From positions 60,343-124,342 of the forward strand of contig MU619301.1 in assembly GCA_025201805.1 (NCBI GenBank): 64,000 nucleotides of DNA, in the 5' to 3' direction. The DNA is from Parasitella parasitica NRRL 2501 (taxonomy: Eukaryota > Fungi > Mucoromycota). Shown piece after piece: positions 16,976-43,649 of this stretch. The position numbers and the translations under genes were made by a program. Below the pieces are notes generated by a model. The model did no database searches and was not told the origin of the DNA. It saw only the letters and a list, made by a program, of their open reading frames with translations. Numbering within the stretch: position 1 is the first letter of the stretch; each line of letters opens with the position of its first letter.

Positions 16976-18397
16976 TTAGAATTCTGTTTTATTCAGGCAA
17001 TTGATGATTTGGCGCTTCGAGTGTCTACAAAATCCACGGAGATCACTTACGCGTACATCGTTGCACGCATCAGCAATTCTTTGTGATAAGTTCTCTTCGC
17101 TTAGCAGCCTATGGCGCTTCATCTTTCCTTTTACAATGGCCCAAAACTGCTCAATTGGGTTCAGTTCTGGAGAATAAGGAGGTAGATACATCACTCGATA
17201 TCCTCTGCTCTCAATCTTTCTCATCATTGGATGCGACTTATGAATAGTACAATTATCCATAACAAGGTAACTGCCCTTCAGATTTGCATCCATGTCCATA
17301 ATATCGAGAAGCTCATTCATGAATTTCACAAAGTGAGCTGTGGTTGTACCTTTGGAAGGCGGCTTGGTTTCTTCTTTCTCAACTTCCACATACTCTATGG
17401 TGGGCTCCTCAATGACAATCCCTCCTGTCTGCTCTTTGCCCCTCGCAAGCTTTCTTTTCTTTGACTTCTCTGCTTGAATTGTTTGAGGCTTCTGTCCTCT
17501 TGGCTTTCTTGGTGGAGGCTTTTTCATGACAACGTGAAGAACACTAGAAGAATGAATGGCGCCAATGATAGTATGTGAGGGGGAGCGAGTCTTTGCAATA
17601 TCAACAATGGCAGGTGTTCCTACTGCTGATCTAGCCCAATTGCTCCTCATGTTGATATTGAATCCAGCCTCATCAATGAAGACGCAGTTTGTGCCGTAAT
17701 CAAGATCAGAATCCTTCCAATTCATGAACCATTCATATCGTTTTTGCAAGTTTTCGGGAGAGTTTCTCGCCTTGGGGTCGAAGGTTGGCTTCTTGATGGA
17801 TATGAGCATATTGTTCCTCAGATGATCATTCATTTGAGACTTCGAGATTTTGAAGTCTTCAAACTTGGATGTCAACATATCAATGATATCGTCAGCACAA
17901 AGCTGCGAGTCTTTTTCAATAACATCCTGGATATACTTCTCATGTTCTCCAGTAAAGGAACTGGGTCTGCCTGCGTTTTTTTCAGATTTCTTGTAGGCTA
18001 CCTCACCCGTCTCGTTATAGTGCTTCCACCAACGCATAGCGGTACGAGGGTTTATACCCAGCTCTTTCGCTGCTGCTGTTACCCTTCCTCTTTCCACAGG
18101 GCCTTCAAGCATTCTTTCAATAAATGTTTCTCTTGTGAGATCATTGTGCTGCTTGTAAGCGCGGTCCGAGACATATTTAGCAACTTTGAAAGGCTTTACA
18201 GAAACATCTTTCATAATGACTTCTTTGTCTTGTGGTTTAAGGGCCAAATATGCTTTCTGGCTGGTAATCGTTTCAAGCACTATGTTGGGATCATTTATAT
18301 TCGTCAATACATCTTCCATTGGATCAATAACCCGCTCTCCACGCTCATCATAGATGTTTTCTTGACCGTCTTCATAATAAAATGTATTTCTACTCAT
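16976..18397 (-). CDS. Tc1-like DD34E transposase (HTH + DDE_3 domain)
   Basis: HTH (VTAAAKELGINPRTAMRWW), FIDEAGF, VMDNCTIH, YLPPYSPELNPIE; 34 residues between the second D and E; uninterrupted 473 aa. Confidence 0.96.
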   Translation of the reverse strand: MSRNTFYYEDGQENIYDERGERVIDPMEDVLTNINDPNIVLETITSQKAYLALKPQDKEVIMKDVSVKPFKVAKYVSDRAYKQHNDLTRETFIERMLEGPVERGRVTAAAKELGINPRTAMRWWKHYNETGEVAYKKSEKNAGRPSSFTGEHEKYIQDVIEKDSQLCADDIIDMLTSKFEDFKISKSQMNDHLRNNMLISIKKPTFDPKARNSPENLQKRYEWFMNWKDSDLDYGTNCVFIDEAGFNINMRSNWARSAVGTPAIVDIAKTRSPSHTIIGAIHSSSVLHVVMKKPPPRKPRGQKPQTIQAEKSKKRKLARGKEQTGGIVIEEPTIEYVEVEKEETKPPSKGTTTAHFVKFMNELLDIMDMDANLKGSYLVMDNCTIHKSHPMMRKIESRGYRVMYLPPYSPELNPIEQFWAIVKGKMKRHRLLSEENLSQRIADACNDVRVSDLRGFCRHSKRQIINCLNKTEF

Positions 18398-18441
18398 ATT
18401 GTTTAGTTACAAAAGTGAAGAAAAGACAGTTACATCATGGC

Positions 18442-28900: not shown

Positions 28901-30927
28901 ACAACATTCAAAAGAAGCCTCGTGCTCTTGTTGAAGAAGAAACTCGCGCAACGGGCATGGTCAAGGTCAGACTCTACAAGTTGTATATCAATATGGTCGG
29001 CAGTCCCTTCTTTTGGATGGTAATGGCCATTTTGGTGATCGGCTCTCGTGGACTAGATGTCACTGAAAATTGGTGGATCAAGCAATGGTCTCAGTCCTAT
29101 GAAACAGAGAGTAATGGTACAAACAGCAACAATGTAATGATTCAACAGGGAGCTATTTCTCAGCCAAAGCCCTTTTACGCCTATCGACCTCTAGTTGCCA
29201 TGGAGACTGATACTGATAACTTTCATATTCTGGACAAGGAAGACGATACACTGAACTATTACCTGGGCATCTACTGTTTGATCACGCTTACCAATATCGT
29301 TGTGGGCACAGCTCGTTTTGCTGTTCTGTTTTGGGGCGTTCTTGGCGCCAACAAGCAACTATATGCTGAACTACTGCATCGTGTCTTTAGGGCCCCTCTT
29401 CGTTTCTTTGATACCACACCCATTGGTAGAATCTTGAATCGTTTCTCCAAAGATTTCGAGACAATTGACTCCAGCATTCCCAATGATTTGCTCAATTTTG
29501 TTATTCAATGGGTTATCATCGTATCAAGCATGATTACTGTTTCTACTGTCTTGCCCATCTTTTTGATACCTTTGCTGGCTGTAGCGCTTGTTAATGTGTA
29601 TTTAGGCGCCATGTTTGTATCTGCCTCACGTGAATTGAAACGTATGGACTCTGTTTCTCGATCCCCCTTGTTCAGCAACTTTACTGAAACCATTGTGGGT
29701 GTTGCTACCATCCGTGCTTTTGGAGCTACTCGCCAATTTTTACAAGAGATGTTAAAGCACATTGACACCAACGCTCGTCCTTATTACTATCAATGGTTAA
29801 CTAACCGTTGGGTTTCTACAAGATTTGCCGTTTCTGGTGCCTTTATTAATATGGTTACTGGCATGATCATCTTGTTGAGTGTCGATAAAATCGACGCTTC
29901 TCTCGCCGGCTTCTGTCTCAGTTTTGTCCTGATGTTTACAGATGAGATGTTCTGGGGCATTCGTCGATACACCAGTCTGGAAATGAGCTTTAATGCTGTT
30001 GAGCGTGTAGTTGAATTCATGGAAATGGATCAAGAAGCACCTGCTATTACTGAATTGAGACCACCTCCTGAATGGCCTACAAAAGGTCAAATTGATGTCA
30101 GGAACCTAGAAATCAAATATGCTGCTGATCTCGACCCTGTTCTTAAAGGCATCTCGTTCTCTGTAAAACCTCAGGAAAAGATTGGCGTTGTTGGTAGAAC
30201 TGGTAGCGGTAAATCTACCCTCGCTCTTTCCTTCTTTAGATTTGTTGAAGCTTCACAAGGCTCTATTGTCATTGATAACATTGACATCAAGGATTTGGGT
30301 ACTGAAGACCTTCGCTCTAATTTGACTATCATTCCTCAGGACCCTACCTTGTTCTCTGGTTCTCTACGATCTAATATGGACTCATTTGATCAATTCTCTG
30401 ACGAAGAAATCTTTACCGCTCTACGCCGTGTGCATTTATTGCCCACAGAAGGTGAATCCACCACTGATACTATCTTGTCTGAATCCACTGTAGATGGAGT
30501 CAATGCTAATTTATTCAAGGATCTGTCTACCAATGTTACTGAAGGTGGCAAAAACTTTTCGCAAGGCCAAAGACAATTGCTATGCCTTGCTCGTGCTCTT
30601 TTGAAGCGCAGCCGTCTTGTATTGATGGATGAAGCTACCGCTAGTGTCGATTTTGAGACTGATAAGGCTATTCAAAAGACCATTACGACTGAATTCGCCG
30701 ACTCTACTATCTTGTGTATTGCTCATCGTCTGCATACTGTCATCGAGTACGATCGTATCTTGGTGCTGGATCAAGGACAGATTCTTGAATTTGATAATCC
30801 TTTGACACTGATCACTAATCCAAAGTCTTCCTTTTACAAAATGTGTCGCAACTCTGGTGAATTCGATAGTCTGGTCGCCTTGGCGAAAGTAAAACATGAG
30901 TTGGTAGATGTGTCTTCCTCCTCTTAA
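25936..30927 (+). CDS. ABCC/MRP-type ABC transporter (Ybt1/Bpt1-like)
   Basis: TMD0 plus 2x(TMD-NBD): GATGCGKT, LSGGQKAR, VLMDD; GRTGSGKS, FSQGQRQ, LMDEATAS. Introns ~26942-27006 and 27617-27725. Confidence 0.95.
27653..27712 (+). repeat. (AATTCACT)7 tandem repeat in an ABC transporter intron
   Basis: Seven perfect 8-bp units followed by AATT. Confidence 0.95.
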
Positions 30928-31448
30928 ATATATTGTTATGTGTATAATGCTTTCATGTAGAATAAAATATCTCTCCTTATTAGATTTATCCTTCCTGGAA
31001 TAGTTTGTGCTTTCTCATTGATGAAGTGGAATACAAAATACATTTATGCTACTGGTATCAAGTATCAGCTGTTTATTGTTTCTTGTTATATATTCTCATT
31101 TTAAAATCTTTGTTGAGAACCGTTAATTTTATATGCCATTTTTTATAATGATTGAGGTTTAGTACAAATTCTAAAAAGTGGAACAAGTGCTGGTTTTAAA
31201 GGACTAGCACAGTAACTGATCTTGCAAAGATCATAAATGGAGAGACTAGCCGCCCAACGCCCGCTTTCTTCCATACCTTGGATGATTAATCAAATTCGGA
31301 CCGAACTACATCTTCATTATCCGGTAGAGCTTCTCTCAGCTACTAATTTAGGAAGCTAAATATCCTTTCTTGTCCGGCTGAAACCTATACTTACACTGAG
31401 CTTGAGCTGGCGATCCTGATACGGTCTCTTTTTCCTTCTGAATATACA

Positions 31449-32329
31449 ATGGCTGGTAAATATCCATACAACAAACATCACATAACAACGATCAAGATGA
31501 GCAATTATCGATTTGAGAGAGAACAGAACATATGAATGCCCTTGCTCTTACTTTTTTTGTTTTGTTTTTGGAGAATGGATGATGGAAATTGGATTTTACA
31601 TCATGGATGGATGAGGTTCCGGAAAAGGCCCTTCTTTTTGAGCGATAAAAAAAAAAAAAAAAAAGAAGAAGAAAGTGTCAAAGGGCTATCATATTAAGTT
31701 CTCGACTTTTATCGTTATTCTTTTTGCTCTTGATGATCCTACAAACTTTTCAACAACATGTATTGATTTTTACGTTATTAAATAGCTCCTCAGAACAAGG
31801 CTCTCGCTGCCAAGAAGGCCGCCCTCAAGGGTGTCCATGGTAAGACTGTACGTAAGATCCGTACTTCCACCCATTTCCACATCCCCAAGACTTTGGCTTT
31901 GAAGCGTGCCCCCAAGTACACTCGTAAGTCTATTGCCCATGCTCCTCGCATGGACCAATATCGTGTCATCCGTCAACCTCTCAACACCGAGACTGCCATG
32001 AAGAAGATTGAGGAACATAACACCTTGACCTTCCTCGTTGATGTCAAGGCCAACAAGAACCAGATCAAGGATGCTGTCAAGCGTCTCTATGATGTTGAGG
32101 CTCAACAAGTCAACACCCTCATCAGGTAGGTTTTTTATATTTTGTGATAGACGATGGGTTTTTCGTTAACTGGGTGCGCTATTTAGACCTGATGGTTACA
32201 AGAAGGCTTTCGTTCGCTTGACCGCTGATGTCGATGCTTTAGACGTTGCCAACAAGGTAATTTATGGTGCAAGTAATAAAATGCCATTGCATTACTAACA
32301 ATTCATGTAACTAGATTGGTTTCATCTAA
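31449..32329 (+). CDS. RPL25: 60S ribosomal protein uL23 (L25/L23a)
   Basis: ATGGCTG|long intron 31456-31785; [35 protein letters not shown]|[14 protein letters not shown]|IGFI*. Confidence 0.97.
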
Positions 32330-32663
32330 ACGATTTACAGTCAATGGAAATCCTAGTTTTTTTTTTTATTTAAATAAAACTAAATTCATAATTTGATGTC
32401 TGATTTTCTTTTATGGGAATGTCTGCTTTTAAATCACCTAGTGTCTTTTTTTTTTTCTTCAACACCTGTCAAAATTAGAATGCTCTTTTTCCGATTGACA
32501 AAGTAACCCAAACACGCTCAATGTCACGTATTAAACACTAAATCGAACATGAGCTGCTGTAAATAACAATTGCCTAGTAGTTACATCAAAATAATTTATT
32601 GAATTTTAAATATTTTTGACAAAATTTGATCTTTCTTTTAGAGAAAAAGAAAAGGGGCGCACT

Positions 32664-33161
32664 TTAACGAGTCTTGAAGTCTATGAAAAAAGGAAAAGTT
32701 AGTTGCCATGGATCACAATATGCATTAGGCATTTGAAATAACTTACAATCCAAGAGGACGTTCATGGCCTCGGACTCCTCTCCGAAATCAGTAACAGCAA
32801 CGCAAGAGCAGCCAACGACCTTACGAGCGTTACCTTCACGATCGATCTTGCAGAGACCAGCCCATTCACCGAGCTTCTTGGCATCAGAGACCTTGATCAA
32901 GTTGATGTTGTGCTCGGCACAGAGAGCTTCGACGAGCTTGATGTACTCAGACTCGGTACAAGACTCACAGAGAACAGCCAAATGAGCTTGACGTCTGTCA
33001 AGAGCCTTAACGGCTTCCTTCAAACCACGGGCAAGACCATCGTGAACAAGAGCACGACGGAGGACTTCTTGGAGAGCATCTTCAACAGACATTTGACCAG
33101 AAGTGGCTCCAGTGGCAACTTCGACTTCTTGAGTATCGATAACTTCTTCGTGGTCAGACAT
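32664..33161 (-). CDS. RPS12: 40S ribosomal protein eS12
   Basis: [43 protein letters not shown]; 5'UTR intron 33163-33301; last intron before YFKTR*. Confidence 0.97.
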
Positions 33162-33935
33162 ACTAGATTTTGCCCAAACTTTAGTATCCTGGTCTAATTG
33201 ATCCATCTATCAACATCTAATACAATCGATCTATTGTCATAGATGATGGATGTCTCGATTTTTTTTTTGATTTTTTTTTAGACAGAAATTATAATACATA
33301 CTTTGGTTATTCTAAGGGTGTAGAAAAAAGAGAAGGATTTCTAGATGTTCCAATACCCGTTGCCTTGTTCAATTCACTGGTCTTCAATACTTCTCGGAAG
33401 CGAAAAAAAAAAAATTATTATCTACCTGAACCCGGGAAAGCAGGTTCGCACCGGAATCGTCAACTTTTATCAAAAGAAGAAAAAAGATCCAGATCATACG
33501 AAACTTTTGCGTTTTCAATAAGCTTTATTCTTGCTGTTTTAAAAGGACAAAGCAAGATCTTTTGTGAATACATAATTCAAATAATTGACATTACTGCACT
33601 GAAAAAACTGCCTTGTAGGCGGGTTTTGCAGTGATTTTGATTTTTCAAGCTTGCATCTCAAATTTTCATTAGCTGATTAATGTCATTCCCCACGGTGTTG
33701 CCTGAACGACTGTTAGCTATCAAACATATTGCCAATTTGCACAAATTCATTGGGCAGCAAGCAAAGTGAACCTATATATTTCTGCTTGATCACGCATCCT
33801 GTTGAACCACACACGCGTTATACAAATACATTCATAAAGAGATGCAATACATATATGAAACACTTTTATGTGTTGAATAAGAATACCAAAAATGAAATGA
33901 AGAAAATTTTATTTATTTAAAAAATCCCAAGTTAC

Positions 33936-34597
33936 TTAGAACTCAACAGCAGCAGGGAACTCAAAGACAACATCTTTACCAGTGAGCTTCTTGTAGACAG
34001 CAGAGAAAGTATCAATCTTGTATTCAAGAGAAGTGGCGTCCTTGGCGTCAAGGAAGACCTTGAGGGTCTTGGTGCCATCAATCTTTTGACGGAGTCTCTT
34101 ACCAACAATCTCGGTAGGGAAAACGAGATCGTTCAAAATAGCCTCGTGGACGGCAGTCAAGGTACGAGAACGAGGACGGGGTTGCTTAGCGCTGTTGCAA
34201 CGACTAGGGACAGCCAAGATACGACGTTGAGCAACGAAAATGACGTGACGATCAGAGAACTTCTTCTCAAGCTCGCGAGTGAGGCGAGCTTGGATCTTGT
34301 GGAAACCAGCTTGGCTGGGGACAGGAACAAAGATGACAATAGCCTTCTTGCCGGAACCGAGCTCAATCTAATCACGATGTGCATACATGTTAATGGACCT
34401 GTTATCTCCTTATCTCTCCCTCACTTTTACTGCATGCAACGATACATTACCTCCTTGGCAGCAGAAATATGGAGAGCCTTGAGGCCCTTCAAGTCGGGGA
34501 CGTTTGACTCCAAGTCAACGAGAGCTTGAGCAACGGAGAGTTCGAACTCATCAGCAGCTGGGGCACCATTCTGCTTAACAATCTTGTTAGAAGCCAT
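33936..34597 (-). CDS. RPS7: 40S ribosomal protein eS7
   Basis: MASNKIVK.., [47 protein letters not shown]; one coding intron and a probable 5'UTR intron 34603-35050. Confidence 0.97.
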
Positions 34598-35247
34598 CTT
34601 GACTATTTAGTGTATTTTGATGCAAGATTGAGAGAGTGTAAATTTGGTGGTGGTAAATTTGAAAAACATGTGGAAAAAAAAAAGTTAGCAACAAAACTTC
34701 AATATAGATTAACAACGGCTACTCCATAGGCGTAATTAAAAAAAGAGATCAAAATGGACAATAGATTGTGTTGCTAGCTGTTGTTGTTGTTGTTGTTTTT
34801 TTGTAGTTACAGATGATATATGAGATATGATGGATGGATATGATGAAGGATTGATGGCTTCAAATCAGAATAACAGTAGATACACGGATCCATCCAGATT
34901 CCTGTGGTGATTTCGCTTCCATCAATCGAAAAGTAGCGCTGTTCTTGCAAATCCATCAACATCCATTGTCATGGATACTTGTTGTATTGATATCATCCTT
35001 TTTAACCTCTTTCTTTATACGCCTTCATGTTGTGCCAAAACAATACGTACGTGAAAAATAAAGGAAGGATCTCAAGCATTGCTTGATTGACATTTGCTTT
35101 TACCGAATAGATTGTTTCCCGGAAAATGTGGGATTTCAAAAAAAAAAAAAAAAAAAAAAGAAATTCCGGTAAACATTTGAAAAACAGCATTTCTTTCATA
35201 TTAGCCTGATTATTTTTACTTTTTAAATACTTTTGTTAAATATACTA

Positions 35248-37363
35248 TTAAGCAGCAGGAGCGCTGCATCCGATGATAAAGCCTTTGGATAATAACTCAC
35301 TTTCACTCATTGTAGTGACAGAAGGGAGAGTGTCGGGAGATAATAAACATACACGTACAAGTAATCTTCTAAGGCGTTCATGTGAGCTTCTACAGCCAGC
35401 TATTGAAAATGCATGATTTTAGTGCGCTAGTTCTAGTATGCAACATTTCAGGTCACTTACCCATTGCAGCTCTTTCAAAGTAAACTGTTGCTTTTCCAAG
35501 GTCGACTGGACAACCCAGCCCCTTTTCATAGCAGTTGGCTAAATGAAATTGACCAGCAACATGATTCTGCTTCGCTGAGCGCTCAAACAAGATGAAAGCT
35601 AATTCTAGATTTTGCGCAACACCAATGCCACTCTGTAAATGAACACCCAGCTTATCCTGAGCTCTTGCGTGGTTTTGCTCACTTGCTTTGCGATACCAAA
35701 CAACAGCCCTTGTTGCATTCTGTCGAACGCCGATTCCATTTGCATAGCAGAAGCCCAGGTTGCATTGCGCCCAGGCGTTATTTTGCTTTGCTGCTTTCAT
35801 GTACCAGTAAGCTGCCTTTTGAGGATTCTTTTTGACACCCATGCCCTCTTCGTAGCAGAATCCCAACGAGTTTTGTCCAACGGCGTTTCCTTGCAGAGCC
35901 GACAAACGGAACCATTTGCAAGCCTCCTTTTCGTTTTTCTCTACGCCAATGCCATTACGATAGCAATAACCAAGGGACAACTGAGCAGGAGCATGGTTGT
36001 GCTCAGCTGATAACATGTAGTAATAGACTGCCTCAGGCTCATTCACTTCAACGCCAACGCCGTTTTGATAACAGTAGCCTAATGAATGGAATGCAAATAT
36101 ATTGCCCAGTTCAGCGCTTTTTCGAAACCATTCAATCGCTTTTTTGACACTCTTTTCGATACCAATGCCATTCTGGTAGCAAAATCCAAGGTTGTGCTGT
36201 GCGCGAGCATGTCCTTGAACAGCGGCTTTTCGGTAGTATTCGACGCTCATCGCAGCGTCTTTGGGGACACCAATTCCGTTCTGATAGCAGTAGCCCAAGT
36301 TGCATTGTGCCCATGGATAGCCCTGATCTGCAGATCGCTTGTACCAGATTGCAGCTAGATCTTGGTTTTCTTCTACTCCAATGCCGTCTTCGTAGCAGTA
36401 ACCTAACGAATTTTGAGCAAATGCATTGTCTTGTTCCGCAGCCAATTGATAATATTTAACTGCCTCCTTCATGTTCTTCTCGACGCCAATACCGTCTTCG
36501 TAGCAGTAGCCGATATTATAAATAGCAACAGTTTCCCCCTGTGATGCAGCCAGTCGGTAATATCTCATTGCTTCAGCCTCGTTTTTCCCTACACCAAATC
36601 CTTCGCCGTAGCAGTAGCCTAGTATGCCTTGTCCACGACAGTTGCCTTGATCAGCGCTAGCTTTATACCAGTAGAAGGCCAGCTTTTCGCTCTTTTTCAC
36701 AGCTAACCCATCATGGTAGCAGACGCCCAGACAATACTGGCTTGCAGAGCACTTGTCGTCGGTAGCTGCACGTTGAACCCATGCAATCGATTTCAGACCG
36801 CCCAATTCTAACTGGGATTCCCATTTATGGGCTTCTATGCGGTCAATGTACACTCCTGGTCTCCCGTACTTGCGCAGGAATGCCAGTCGAGAAATCGCAA
36901 GTAACGCTCGCTCGTCGCTGGTGCCGTTTTTCAGGTCGGACGGGAGGGCCGAGATGTAATGCTGCTCTGCTGATTTGAAGCTCCTGGTGACACCAAATCC
37001 AAATTCATAACAGAATCCAAGGATGGCATGAGCGCTTTGGTTGTAATGTGTGGCTTTTGCAAGTAGTTTAATCGTGAGCTTGTAGTCTTTCTGGAAGCCG
37101 TTTCGGCCAAATAGATAGTTTTCTGCTTGGTCGATCAGTTTCATGCTGTTTGTCAATTGACCTTGTGTCGGTCTTGTCGCTGAGGTAGCAGCTGTTGCGG
37201 TGTGCTGTTGGGGGTATATATCGTGGCCGCTCTCGATTGAATTGGAGCGCTTTTGCGGTGTGTTGTTGGCTGCGATTTTGCCAAATATGTTTCGTGAGTA
37301 ATGCATTAATTGCTGTATTAGAGGCAGGTTGTTGGACGTAGAATTGGCTGATGAGGATGACAT
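35248..37363 (-). CDS. Sel1-like repeat (SLR/TPR) protein
   Basis: About 12-13 tandem AQxxLGxCYxxGxGVxKxxxxAxxWYxxAAxQG repeats; GTAAGT intron at ~35402-35460, then a last exon ending CSAPAA*. Confidence 0.9.
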
Positions 37364-39399
37364 GATTGCGAGTGTGTTGATCCAAGAAAGAATAACAAAC
37401 GCTTATATTTATTCTTAGTAGGATTGTTGCCAGCGCAAAGTTAAGTGTATTCAAAAGAAAGAAAGGGAAAAGGAACAGGAACTAAACTAGATTATAGCGA
37501 AAAAGCTGTTTGTATTATAAATAGTTTAATAGAATCATATATACAAACACACACAACAAACTGTATGCAAGGTCATCCCAACCTGGATAACCCCACTAAA
37601 CCGTATTATACAGTCTCCTCTTCCTCTTGCTATTCTCCTTTCTTCCCCTTCGATATCGCTCTTTGGACAAAGAATGACTTTTTCTGCGTCATATGGCTTT
37701 CTTGTCCCTGACGCAAGTGTAACAAACAGACAATGGAATCGTATATACACCATGGTCCACAAGAAGCGAACCTGCCAATGCATCACACAACATGTATAAA
37801 AACTACTCTATACAATCAATTTACACAACACATGCCCCCATTTTGATCTTGCAATAAACTGCCCTCCCCCTTTTTTAATGGGCTGTTTGTTTTCTTACAA
37901 ACCACCGCTGCCGCTGCTTCTGCTGCTGCTGTTGCTTTTGCTGCTGCATTTAGCCTTCTCCCCCCCCCCCCTTTTTTTTTCGCATAATTAATAGTGTAAC
38001 TGATTTATCATTATAGAGTTTCCCTCCTTTTTAGGTTTGATGGATATGTGTATCATTATCATTGTATTCTTAGCATTTGTAAATAAAACAAAAGCAGCAG
38101 CAGATGGATTTACATCTCTCAGAGTAGTGCAGCTGTTATTTACATGATAATAATGGTTTTATATCGGAACAAACTGGTCCGAGATCATCTCACCTTCTGC
38201 TCAAATGGGATAAATGACAACAGATATGGAGATCATCCATCGGCGCTACTCTTTATACCCCATCCCCAGGTTGAATACGGTATTTCATGTATCGCTTCTT
38301 TTTCTCATCTCCTAACCAATTTCTTTGTTCTTTGTGGCTCCCTTTTTAATAAAGATATGATATATCGTCAGGGAAAAAGTCAGGGGTAATAAGCCAATTG
38401 AGCAGAGCTTTTCTAGATTTTCCCTCGTATCGTTGTTTCTTATGCATGAATGGTTCCGTGTAACAGTTCCCCTTCCATGCTGTATATATATATAATACTA
38501 TCACCCTCAGTACGAATATAATGGTAGCATTACGCTAGACACTAAATGTTTTGATTTCTACTATTAATCCGCAAATGAGGGTCGTGCGTTTTTATTGTGG
38601 TATATACTCTCACTTTTTTTTTTTTTTTTTGGTTTTTTAATATCTGCACCCCAAGTATGTATGTATGTATGATACATGATGTGTTGCTGTGTTGTATCTT
38701 GCTGTCATGACCTGACACTTTTGAAACTTTCTCTTGTTCAAATGACTCTTTTTATCTTACATACGTTTTCACCATACATCAATGTCCATATTTTTGAGCC
38801 AACAGTAGTTGTTTTGCAATAATCTACGCCATCAATAATTTCATACTCAAGCTATTACGTATGTACATGGAACAAAGTGAGCACATTTTGCGTTCATCTC
38901 TATAGCAATCGACATCGTGCGGAAACAACATGAGCTCTGTTTCATTGTTGTTGACAACATGTGCAGGATATTAATATCATTTCTGATGTCAGTTTGCCAA
39001 CTATTTTGCTTTTTTTTTTAAACTATTACGTATAACTCAATTATACATAAACACGCACATACGAAAACCGGCGGCAAAATGCATAAAAATGCTCCAAGGC
39101 TTATATGATATCTGATTACAGATCCATCAGCAAGAAGTTTCAGAAATGTTCTGGATCTCTCCGAGTAATGTTAGAATGTTGTAAATCAACATTTAATGGC
39201 GAGACTTTTGGTCACTTGCAGCTTTTGAAAGTATACCAAGCGATCGCTCTGTGGTCTTTTCAATTCATCTTTGTCAAAATTGGGTCGAATAATGAAGCTT
39301 CTTATTATAGCATTTGTTAAATTAAACAAAGCACAAAGGGTCTTCTTCAGTCTGGTTATTTTGTTTGCTTAAAAACCGTGCTCTTGGTTTTTGATAGAA

Positions 39400-43153: not shown

Positions 43154-43649
43154 TAGTGTCAGTAGTAGCTTTTTGCACATACGAATAAAACGTCTCGCTG
43201 GATTCAAATAGCTTGTGCTAGACACATGAAAGCATTGAAAAAAAAAAAAAATGAAAAATACCACTAGAATGTAATGCGCATTGATTGACTATGCCATAAG
43301 TTGTAGTATTCCACAATGCAATGATCACAGTGTAGAAATCCTTGAATTGTCAAGAGCAATGCACTGTTAGACATATTTTTGCGGCTATTTAAATAAATAC
43401 ATCAGCCACCATTCGTTTTGTGTATTTTGCGCAAATCCTCAAATAAGGATTTGCCATTGGATTTTATACACCTTCTTTCTCCACGTTCAAAGGTACCCAA
43501 CATCGTAACTTCCATCCATCCATTCATCCATCCATCCATTAACAACCACATACTGACCGATCTATATTTCTTTCTTTTTTTTTTTTTTNNNNNNNNNNNN
43601 NNNNNNNNNNNNNNNNNNNNNNNNNNNNNNNNNNNNNNTCAACCAACAG

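What the first reader, a model, noticed from the sequence alone, without database searches (positions are those of the whole stretch)
33229..34976. Shared intronic hairpin with a compensatory change in the RPS12 and RPS7 leader introns: candidate ribosomal-protein regulon RNA element
On the sense (-) strand, the RPS12 5'UTR intron contains AUCUAU-GACA-AUAGAU (33244-33229) and the RPS7 5'UTR intron contains AUCCAU-GACA-AUGGAU (34976-34961). The 16-mers differ at exactly two positions, which form one base pair (U-A versus C-G). They lie 57 and 74 nt after the donors, and both introns also carry GAUGUUGAU at or just after the 3' arm. Both have a downstream complement able to open the hairpin (RPS7 AUCUAUUGUC at ~34757-34766; RPS12 GAUUGU), suggesting a switch. 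These are unrelated genes, so a shared covarying structure suggests a common RNA-binding regulator of splicing or stability (inference). I know of no described element like it in Mucorales.
Basis: partly seen in the sequence, partly recalled or inferred. Interest (0 to 1): 0.75.

Follow-up and report, generated by a model that had tools for sequence, protein, structure and literature searches.

The report
Intronic DNA motif marking ribosomal-protein genes
All four ribosomal-protein genes in this stretch of a pin-mould genome carry a cluster of the same six-letter motif, in either orientation, in their predicted first intron; these are likely DNA binding sites for a shared transcription factor, and the reported hairpin is likely just two such sites facing each other.

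Summary
The two 16-mers are real and not chance, but they are part of something wider. The window (Mucoraceae) holds four RP genes: RPL25, RPS12, RPS7, RPL12. Their first introns hold 23 ATRGAT cores against about 1 expected. ATRGAT is the only one-degenerate 6-mer present at least four times in all four introns. Cores face both ways: 15 sense, 17 antisense over six introns. The hairpin's pairing probability is 0.00 in the full RPS12 intron and 0.29-0.38 in RPS7. Best reading (0.6): a promoter-proximal intronic cluster of DNA sites for an unidentified RP-regulon factor; the hairpin is two cores head to head, 10 bp apart. An RNA role is not excluded: a relative changes the 5' arm at the covarying base and its partner could not be read. 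No binding or expression data exist; only six motif-bearing introns were seen. Ten literature searches found no description.

The parts
33163..33301 (-). RPS12 predicted 5'-leader intron (139 nt), 5 ATRGAT cores (3 sense, 2 antisense) at nt 51-101
   Evidence: GTATGT..TAG, ATG at 33161; counts; splicing inferred
33229..33244 (-). RPS12 16-mer: antisense core + GACA + sense core, starts 10 bp apart
33205..33220 (-). RPS12 tandem module: near-core TTAGAT, GTTG, core ATAGAT (10-bp period)
   Evidence: read; core at nt 92
32664..33161 (-). RPS12 coding region
   Evidence: PF01248; 99-100% to Mucor/Parasitella RPS12
34603..35050 (-). RPS7 predicted 5'-leader intron (448 nt), 8 cores (3 sense, 5 antisense)
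   Evidence: GTACGT..TAG; deep contigs stop at 34602; counts
34951..34976 (-). RPS7 16-mer plus GTTG and a third core: cores at intron nt 75, 85, 95 (10-bp period)
   Evidence: relative X12 differs at 34973
34825..34864 (-). RPS7 intron block with two antisense cores, 0 of 40 bases changed in relative X12, beside a 73-nt stretch that does not align
   Evidence: tables 5 and 8
34757..34766 (+). Reversed copy of the 10-mer GACAATRGAT in the RPS7 intron, no inverted partner arm
33936..34597 (-). RPS7 coding region
   Evidence: PF01251; intron 2 joint
31456..31785 (+). RPL25 (uL23) first intron (330 nt), 4 cores (3 sense at 31575-31612, 1 antisense at 31462-31467), no hairpin
   Evidence: joint 31454-31785 GT..AG in X7; PF03939/PF00276
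43493..43649 (+). RPL12 (uL11) predicted leader intron; visible 96 nt hold 6 cores, all antisense (43514-43539, 43560-43565); 43589-43638 is an N gap
   Evidence: PF00298/PF03946; donor inferred only

Best explanation
The first introns of the ribosomal-protein genes carry clusters of the hexamer ATRGAT (extended form GACAATRGAT) in both orientations, which likely act on the DNA as binding sites for one sequence-specific, still unidentified transcription factor that would co-regulate the RP genes from just downstream of the start site. Shown: the clustering, its restriction to RP first introns within the window, the mixed orientation, the 10-bp start-to-start spacing in RPS7 and RPS12, and the recurrence in an Umbelopsis-like RPL25 intron. 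Inferred: protein binding, a DNA rather than RNA target, an activating effect, and genome-wide use. The reported hairpin is two cores placed head to head around GACA; any inverted pair of DNA half-sites folds as a hairpin when read as RNA.
For: 23 cores in 1012 nt of four first introns vs 0.97 expected (18 vs 0.96 without overlaps); the four best 120-nt windows of 64 kb are these four introns (6, 5, 4, 3; all others <=2), in a window with at least 12 recognisable non-RP genes. Unbiased k-mer test: ATCCAT/ATGGAT top 6-mer, 17 vs 35 in the rest, Bonferroni 1.4e-16; ATRGAT the only shared pattern at >=4 in all four; 0 of 300 random AT-rich quartets share any. Six later introns of the same genes hold 1 core; 343-399 nt upstream hold 0, 0, 1, 0. 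Orientation 15 sense / 17 antisense. Independent loci: L034 (RPL25 97% to Umbelopsis vinacea) 6 cores vs 0.57 and one armless GACAATGGAT, the only copy in 481,666 nt of 76 loci; L002 (unplaced early-diverging fungus) 3 cores vs 0.32. Only 8 of 32 cores pair with an opposite core at P>0.5. 40-nt core-bearing block unchanged in X12.
Against: No binding, chromatin or reporter data. Only four RP genes of one genome and two outside introns carry the motif; no whole genome was available. Four Mortierellaceae-like RPS12 leader introns have 0-1 cores, so it is not phylum-wide. All five complete introns contain both orientations, as a stem model would want, and three fold at z -1.6 to -2.0. Many cores overlap inside (ATGG)n runs, so they are not independent. 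RPL25's best window (3) is only one above background (2). No factor could be named; the DAP-seq set of PMC12638772 gave no usable match.
Confidence: 0.6

Rival explanations
1. The 16-mer is an RNA hairpin with a GACA loop, bound by a common RNA-binding regulator of splicing or stability.
For: Same arrangement in two unrelated genes, 0 of 3000 shuffles. Pairing 0.75-0.99 in nascent RPS12 prefixes up to 10 nt past it, and mostly above 0.9 (ends 0.55-0.9) in local RPS7 context. Relative X12 changes only the covarying 5'-arm base among the 16-mer positions that the table can show; this gives U-G or, if the unseen partner changed too, U-A: both pair.
Against: P 0.00 in the full RPS12 intron and 0.29-0.38 in RPS7; -3.4 and -5.4 kcal/mol alone. 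Absent from RPL25 and from the visible part of RPL12; 2 of 4 GACAATRGAT copies have no 5' arm and the L034 equivalent folds at 0.0. No Rfam match at E<=1. Known fungal RP RNA motifs are mostly gene-specific autoregulatory sites (PMC5640933, PMC8216456, passages).
Confidence: 0.13
2. Sense and antisense cores pair over longer range into zipper or long stems that aid splicing of long RP introns, as in budding yeast.
For: All five complete introns hold both orientations; RPS12, RPS7, RPL25 fold at z -1.6 to -2.0; RPS7 has predicted 5'-3' helices at P 0.93-0.98. Known in S. cerevisiae (PMC12350175, PMC12311795, abstracts).
Against: Stems need complementarity, not one shared hexamer across unrelated genes and orders (inference). 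8 of 32 cores pair with an opposite core; L034 z 0.01, L002 z -0.34, visible RPL12 part unstructured. The main RPS7 helices are not made of cores; their 5' arm has four listed changes in X12 and the partner could not be read.
Confidence: 0.1
3. The clusters are dense ApT targets for symmetric 6mA methylation just downstream of the start site (methylated adenine clusters), which position nucleosomes on highly expressed genes.
For: Right place and lineage, orientation-free: 6mA peaks downstream of the TSS at VATB in Rhizopus and Phycomyces (PMC12019607, PMC11258239, passages). The Mortierellaceae-like introns have 84-96% of ApT in VATB context.
Against: In the window the RP introns are not special for VATB: fraction 0.54-0.75 vs 0.57 overall, and only 4 of the top 15 VATB windows lie at these introns, none in the top 3. 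The A variant of the core breaks VATB. Clusters cover 35-40% of genes in 6mA-rich species and do not track ApT density; M. lusitanicus has only 39.
Confidence: 0.07
4. No selected function: (ATGG)n micro-repeats arising in highly transcribed introns, with the shared 16-mer copied once between two neighbouring genes.
For: RPL12, L002 and L034 clusters look like short tandem repeats; RPS7 and RPS12 are adjacent and share about 26 nt apart from a 14-nt insert and three R/Y changes.
Against: Later introns of the same genes lack it; the 10-mer recurs in another gene of another order; a core-bearing 40-nt block is unchanged in X12 while its neighbour does not align (biased, since aligned pieces are picked for likeness).
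Confidence: 0.1

Closest known systems
Fungal RP-regulon DNA elements: Rap1 sites (S. cerevisiae), Tbf1/Cbf1 (C. albicans), Homol-D (S. pombe) (PMC4138321, PMC8047918; passages)
   Same: One short motif shared by unrelated RP genes, often as paired or palindromic sites; lineage-specific swapping of the motif.
   Different: Those lie upstream of the start site; here cores lie inside the first intron and are nearly absent upstream; different sequence; factor unknown.
Plant downstream GATC motif (YVGATCBR, GATA factors) and the intron-mediated-enhancement motif TTNGATYTG (PMC11525189 section 9 part 1, PMC6760150 passages)
   Same: GAT-core motif in multiple copies downstream of the TSS, in introns or UTRs, acting in a copy-number-dependent way.
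   Different: Core here is ATRGAT, not GATC; confined to RP genes in the window rather than thousands of genes; no effect measured. The Mortierellaceae-like RPS12 introns, rich in GATC, are closer to it.
Fungal RP pre-mRNA structures (rpl7, rpl7-l8-s3, rps0, RPL12, RPS13 motifs; RPL7B zipper/switch) (PMC5640933, PMC8216456 passages; PMC12311795 abstract)
   Same: RP introns or leaders; one motif (rpl7-l8-s3) is shared by three RP genes.
   Different: Those are larger, strand-specific, covariation-supported; neither survey mentions Mucor, Rhizopus, rps7 or rps12.
Methylated adenine clusters of early-diverging fungi (PMC12019607, PMC11258239)
   Same: ApT-rich, orientation-free, just downstream of the TSS of highly expressed genes.
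   Different: Defined by methylation, not by a 6-10-nt motif; not RP-specific.

Membership tests
RP-regulon DNA cis-element | Motif enriched at RP genes versus other genes | tested here: met
   4 of 4 RP genes, no comparable cluster elsewhere in 64 kb; not genome-wide
RP-regulon DNA cis-element | Orientation-independent | tested here: met
   15 sense, 17 antisense
RP-regulon DNA cis-element | Conserved in other species of the lineage | tested here: inconclusive
   Present in L034 and L002, absent in 4 of 4 Mortierellaceae-like introns; one close relative read in part
RP-regulon DNA cis-element | Bound by a factor and needed for transcription | not testable with these tools
   No ChIP, footprint or reporter data
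Rap1 / Tbf1 / Homol-D type element | Located upstream of the start site | tested here: not met
   0, 0, 1, 0 cores in 343-399 nt upstream of the four donors
Conserved RP pre-mRNA hairpin | Forms in the full intron | tested here: not met
   P 0.00 (RPS12), 0.29-0.38 (RPS7), prediction only
Conserved RP pre-mRNA hairpin | Sense-strand specific, both arms always present | tested here: not met
   10-mer reversed in RPS7 and armless in L034
Conserved RP pre-mRNA hairpin | Covariation among orthologues | tested here: inconclusive
   One relative, one listed change at 34973, partner 34964 unresolved
Rfam families | Match to a covariance model | tested here: not met
   0 matches at E<=1 in 30000-38000
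Plant-type downstream GATC element | GATC core enriched | tested here: not met
   GATC 1-2 per intron, P 0.26-0.52 in the four window introns
Methylated adenine cluster | Symmetric 6mA at ApT | not testable with these tools
   VATB density not distinctive; no methylation data

The most novel reading that the evidence does not exclude
Mucoromycotina run their ribosomal-protein regulon from inside the first intron: an unidentified factor binds arrays of ATRGAT/GACAATRGAT downstream of the start site, conserved from Mucoraceae to Umbelopsis and swapped for a GATC-type motif in Mortierellaceae. This would be a fungal counterpart of the plant downstream GAT-core enhancers and a new RP regulatory wiring beside Rap1, Tbf1 and Homol-D.
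Probability: 0.4. Interest if true: 0.7.

Novelty: new variant of a known kind. Interest (0 to 1): 0.5.

Why it matters
The RP regulon is the standard case of regulatory rewiring in fungi, but the reviews and surveys read here cover Ascomycota. A defined motif gives direct bait for finding the growth-control factor of Mucorales, a short test for whether introns raise expression through DNA sites in fungi, and a possible expression-boosting part for Mucor and Umbelopsis work. It also warns that 'covarying hairpins' shared by co-regulated genes can be inverted DNA half-sites.

Tried and rejected
No whole genome held, so no genome-wide scan. Rfam: none in 30000-38000. Metagenome scan with RPS12: 74 loci, none with the 16-mer, none placed in Mucorales; 1 of 74 has >=3 cores per 120 nt near the RPS12 5' end, but many lack upstream DNA. 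GTDB and viral collections: one contaminant RPS7 locus, one weak hit, one blank. Second read-laying: 3 of 4 runs laid nothing, which is no proof of absence; 7 of 14 differences in the X12 piece were not listed. Copf3 (copper-fist factor said to target ribosome biogenesis in R. microsporus, best JASPAR match Cup9) was followed: 27 peaks, 9 targets, read-in-peak 6.3% and 1.5%, and seven unrelated domain terms score alike (7.0-8.4), which looks like one gene per term; its logo could not be read; dropped. The Mucor 6mA-cluster table gives coordinates only and could not be tied to RP genes (only part 1 of 263 seen; two larger files unreadable). PMC6760150 has no statement on orientation. Tree placement of L002 unresolved. 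Sigma-70 scan irrelevant. Earlier-findings look-ups were empty. ACAAT as a SOX-type HMG core and a Myb-type GGAT binder were considered from recall only; untested.

Full report
Observation. The two 16-mers lie at 33229-33244 and 34961-34976 on the - strand; chance gives 0.22 matches at two mismatches, and 0 of 3000 shuffled intron pairs share such a hairpin. The genes are RPS12 and RPS7. RPS12 is 99-100% identical to Mucor and Parasitella proteins. The leader introns (33301-33163, 35050-34603) are inferred from splice signals; deep contigs of X7 and X14 stop at the RPS7 acceptor, but no joint spans either leader intron (X7 is only guessed to be RNA). Rfam has nothing here.

A wider feature. 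The window has two more RP genes, RPL25 and RPL12. The RPL25 first intron is bridged by a GT..AG joint; the RPL12 one is partly hidden by an N gap. The four first introns hold 23 copies of ATRGAT or its complement in 1012 nt, against 0.97 expected (18 against 0.96 without overlaps). They are the four best 120-nt windows of the 64 kb (6, 5, 4, 3; the rest at most 2), among at least 12 recognisable non-RP genes (40 of 235 ORFs scanned). I chose the pattern after seeing the data, so I repeated the test blind: ATCCAT/ATGGAT is the top 6-mer (17 against 35 elsewhere, Bonferroni 1.4e-16), ATRGAT is the only one-degenerate 6-mer found four or more times in all four introns, and 0 of 300 random AT-rich quartets share any. 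Six later introns of these genes hold one core (some boundaries there were off by one base); the upstream 343-399 nt hold 0, 0, 1, 0.

Outside the window. Of 74 RPS12 loci from metagenomes, none could be placed in Mucorales and none has the 16-mer. L034 keeps the convergent RPS12-RPL25 pair; its RPL25 is 97% identical to Umbelopsis vinacea. Its first intron has 6 cores (shuffle mean 0.57) and one GACAATGGAT at nt 30 with no 5' arm; the 16 nt there fold at 0.0 kcal/mol. That is the only copy of the 10-mer in 481,666 nt of 76 loci (1.8 expected at random), and it falls in the one Mucoromycotina RP first intron I had. L002, an unplaced early-diverging fungus, has 3 cores in a 69-nt RPS12 leader intron. 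Four Mortierellaceae-like RPS12 leader introns (L001, L003, L029, L032; L001 partial, L003's end approximate) have 0-1 cores but 5-9 GATC, P 0.16, 0.002, 0.014, 0.002. The motif is therefore not phylum-wide.

DNA or RNA. Over six introns the cores are 15 sense and 17 antisense; the visible RPL12 part is 0/6, L034 5/1. The covarying position is the core's degenerate base (24 G, 8 A), and a third core after GTTG makes the same choice as the arms in each gene. Cores start at nt 75, 85, 95 in RPS7 and at 58, 68 and (82), 92 in RPS12: one helical turn apart in both inverted and tandem pairs, though RPL12, RPL25 and L034 show 4-bp overlapping runs instead. The hairpin has P 0.00 in the full RPS12 intron and 0.29-0.38 in RPS7. 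Eight of 32 cores pair with an opposite core.

Against my reading. The hairpin forms well in nascent prefixes and in local RPS7 context. In relative X12 the only listed change in the 16-mer is at 34973, the covarying 5'-arm base. The partner, 34964, is not listed, but 7 of the piece's 14 differences are unlisted and it lies 27 nt from the piece's end, so the pair is U-G or U-A; both suit a hairpin, and both suit a degenerate core. All five complete introns have both orientations and three fold at z -1.6 to -2.0. In the same relative a 40-nt block with two cores is unchanged beside 73 nt that do not align, which suggests constraint but is biased by how pieces are picked.

Mechanism. Most likely (0.6) a sequence-specific factor binds these clusters on double-stranded DNA just downstream of the start site and co-regulates RP transcription; binding, direction of effect and genome-wide reach are inferred. 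A shared hexamer across unrelated genes and orders calls for sequence recognition, and mixed orientation points to DNA. Rivals: RNA hairpin (0.13), long-range stems (0.10), unselected repeats plus a local copy (0.10), 6mA target clusters (0.07; VATB density is not distinctive).

Known systems. Ascomycete RP genes use upstream Rap1, Tbf1/Cbf1 or Homol-D sites (PMC4138321, PMC8047918; passages). Plants use a GATC motif downstream of the TSS, dose-dependently, bound by GATA factors (PMC11525189; abstract, passages, section 9 part 1) and an intronic TTNGATYTG (PMC6760150; passages). Fungal RP RNA motifs are in PMC5640933 and PMC8216456 (passages; no mention of Mucor, Rhizopus, rps7, rps12); zipper stems in PMC12350175 and PMC12311795 (abstracts). 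6mA: PMC12019607 and PMC11258239 (passages; one supplement part). Mucorales cistrome: PMC12638772 (passages, section 9, supplement searches); motif logos are figures and could not be read, so a match there is not excluded. PMC6993855 (passages) covers Mucoromycota RP genes and has no occurrence of 'motif'. Ten searches of the open library listed no description of this element; subscription papers, including older Mucor racemosus RP gene work (recalled), were not searchable.

Verdict. Observation confirmed; interpretation partly supported. A real RP-regulon signal, better read as an intronic DNA motif cluster than as an RNA hairpin. New variant of a known kind; interest 0.5.

Noticed in passing
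window 31000-31460 (- strand), intron 31343-31394: A contig of X7 skips 31343-31394 with CT..AC ends: a canonical minus-strand intron in a transcript divergent from the RPL25 promoter. No open frame without stops in the predicted spliced form; Rfam gives only chance hits at E 2.6 and 6.7. Possibly a spliced non-coding RNA.
   Followed up: partly
L001, L003, L029, L032, RPS12 leader introns: Mortierellaceae-like leader introns are rich in GATC (5-9 copies; significant in 3 of 4) and have 84-96% of ApT in VATB context: a plant-like downstream GATC element or a 6mA signature.
   Followed up: partly
window 31449-34597 and L034: The convergent RPL25-RPS12 pair is kept in an Umbelopsis-like contig; the window has three RP genes in a row and a fourth 9 kb away.
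   Followed up: partly
window 34728-34763 with 34991-35024: Predicted long 5'-3' stem in the RPS7 intron (three helices, P 0.93-0.98), not built from the cores; four listed changes in its 5' arm in X12.
   Followed up: partly
L005: Three tandem, near-identical intronless RPS12 copies within 1.5 kb in an AT-rich fungal contig.
   Followed up: no
L075: A eukaryotic RPS7 gene sits on a contig of a bacterial MAG in the GTDB collection, probably contamination.
   Followed up: no
window 16976-18406 (-): Intact-looking 476-codon DDE_3 transposase frame with HTH domains.
   Followed up: no
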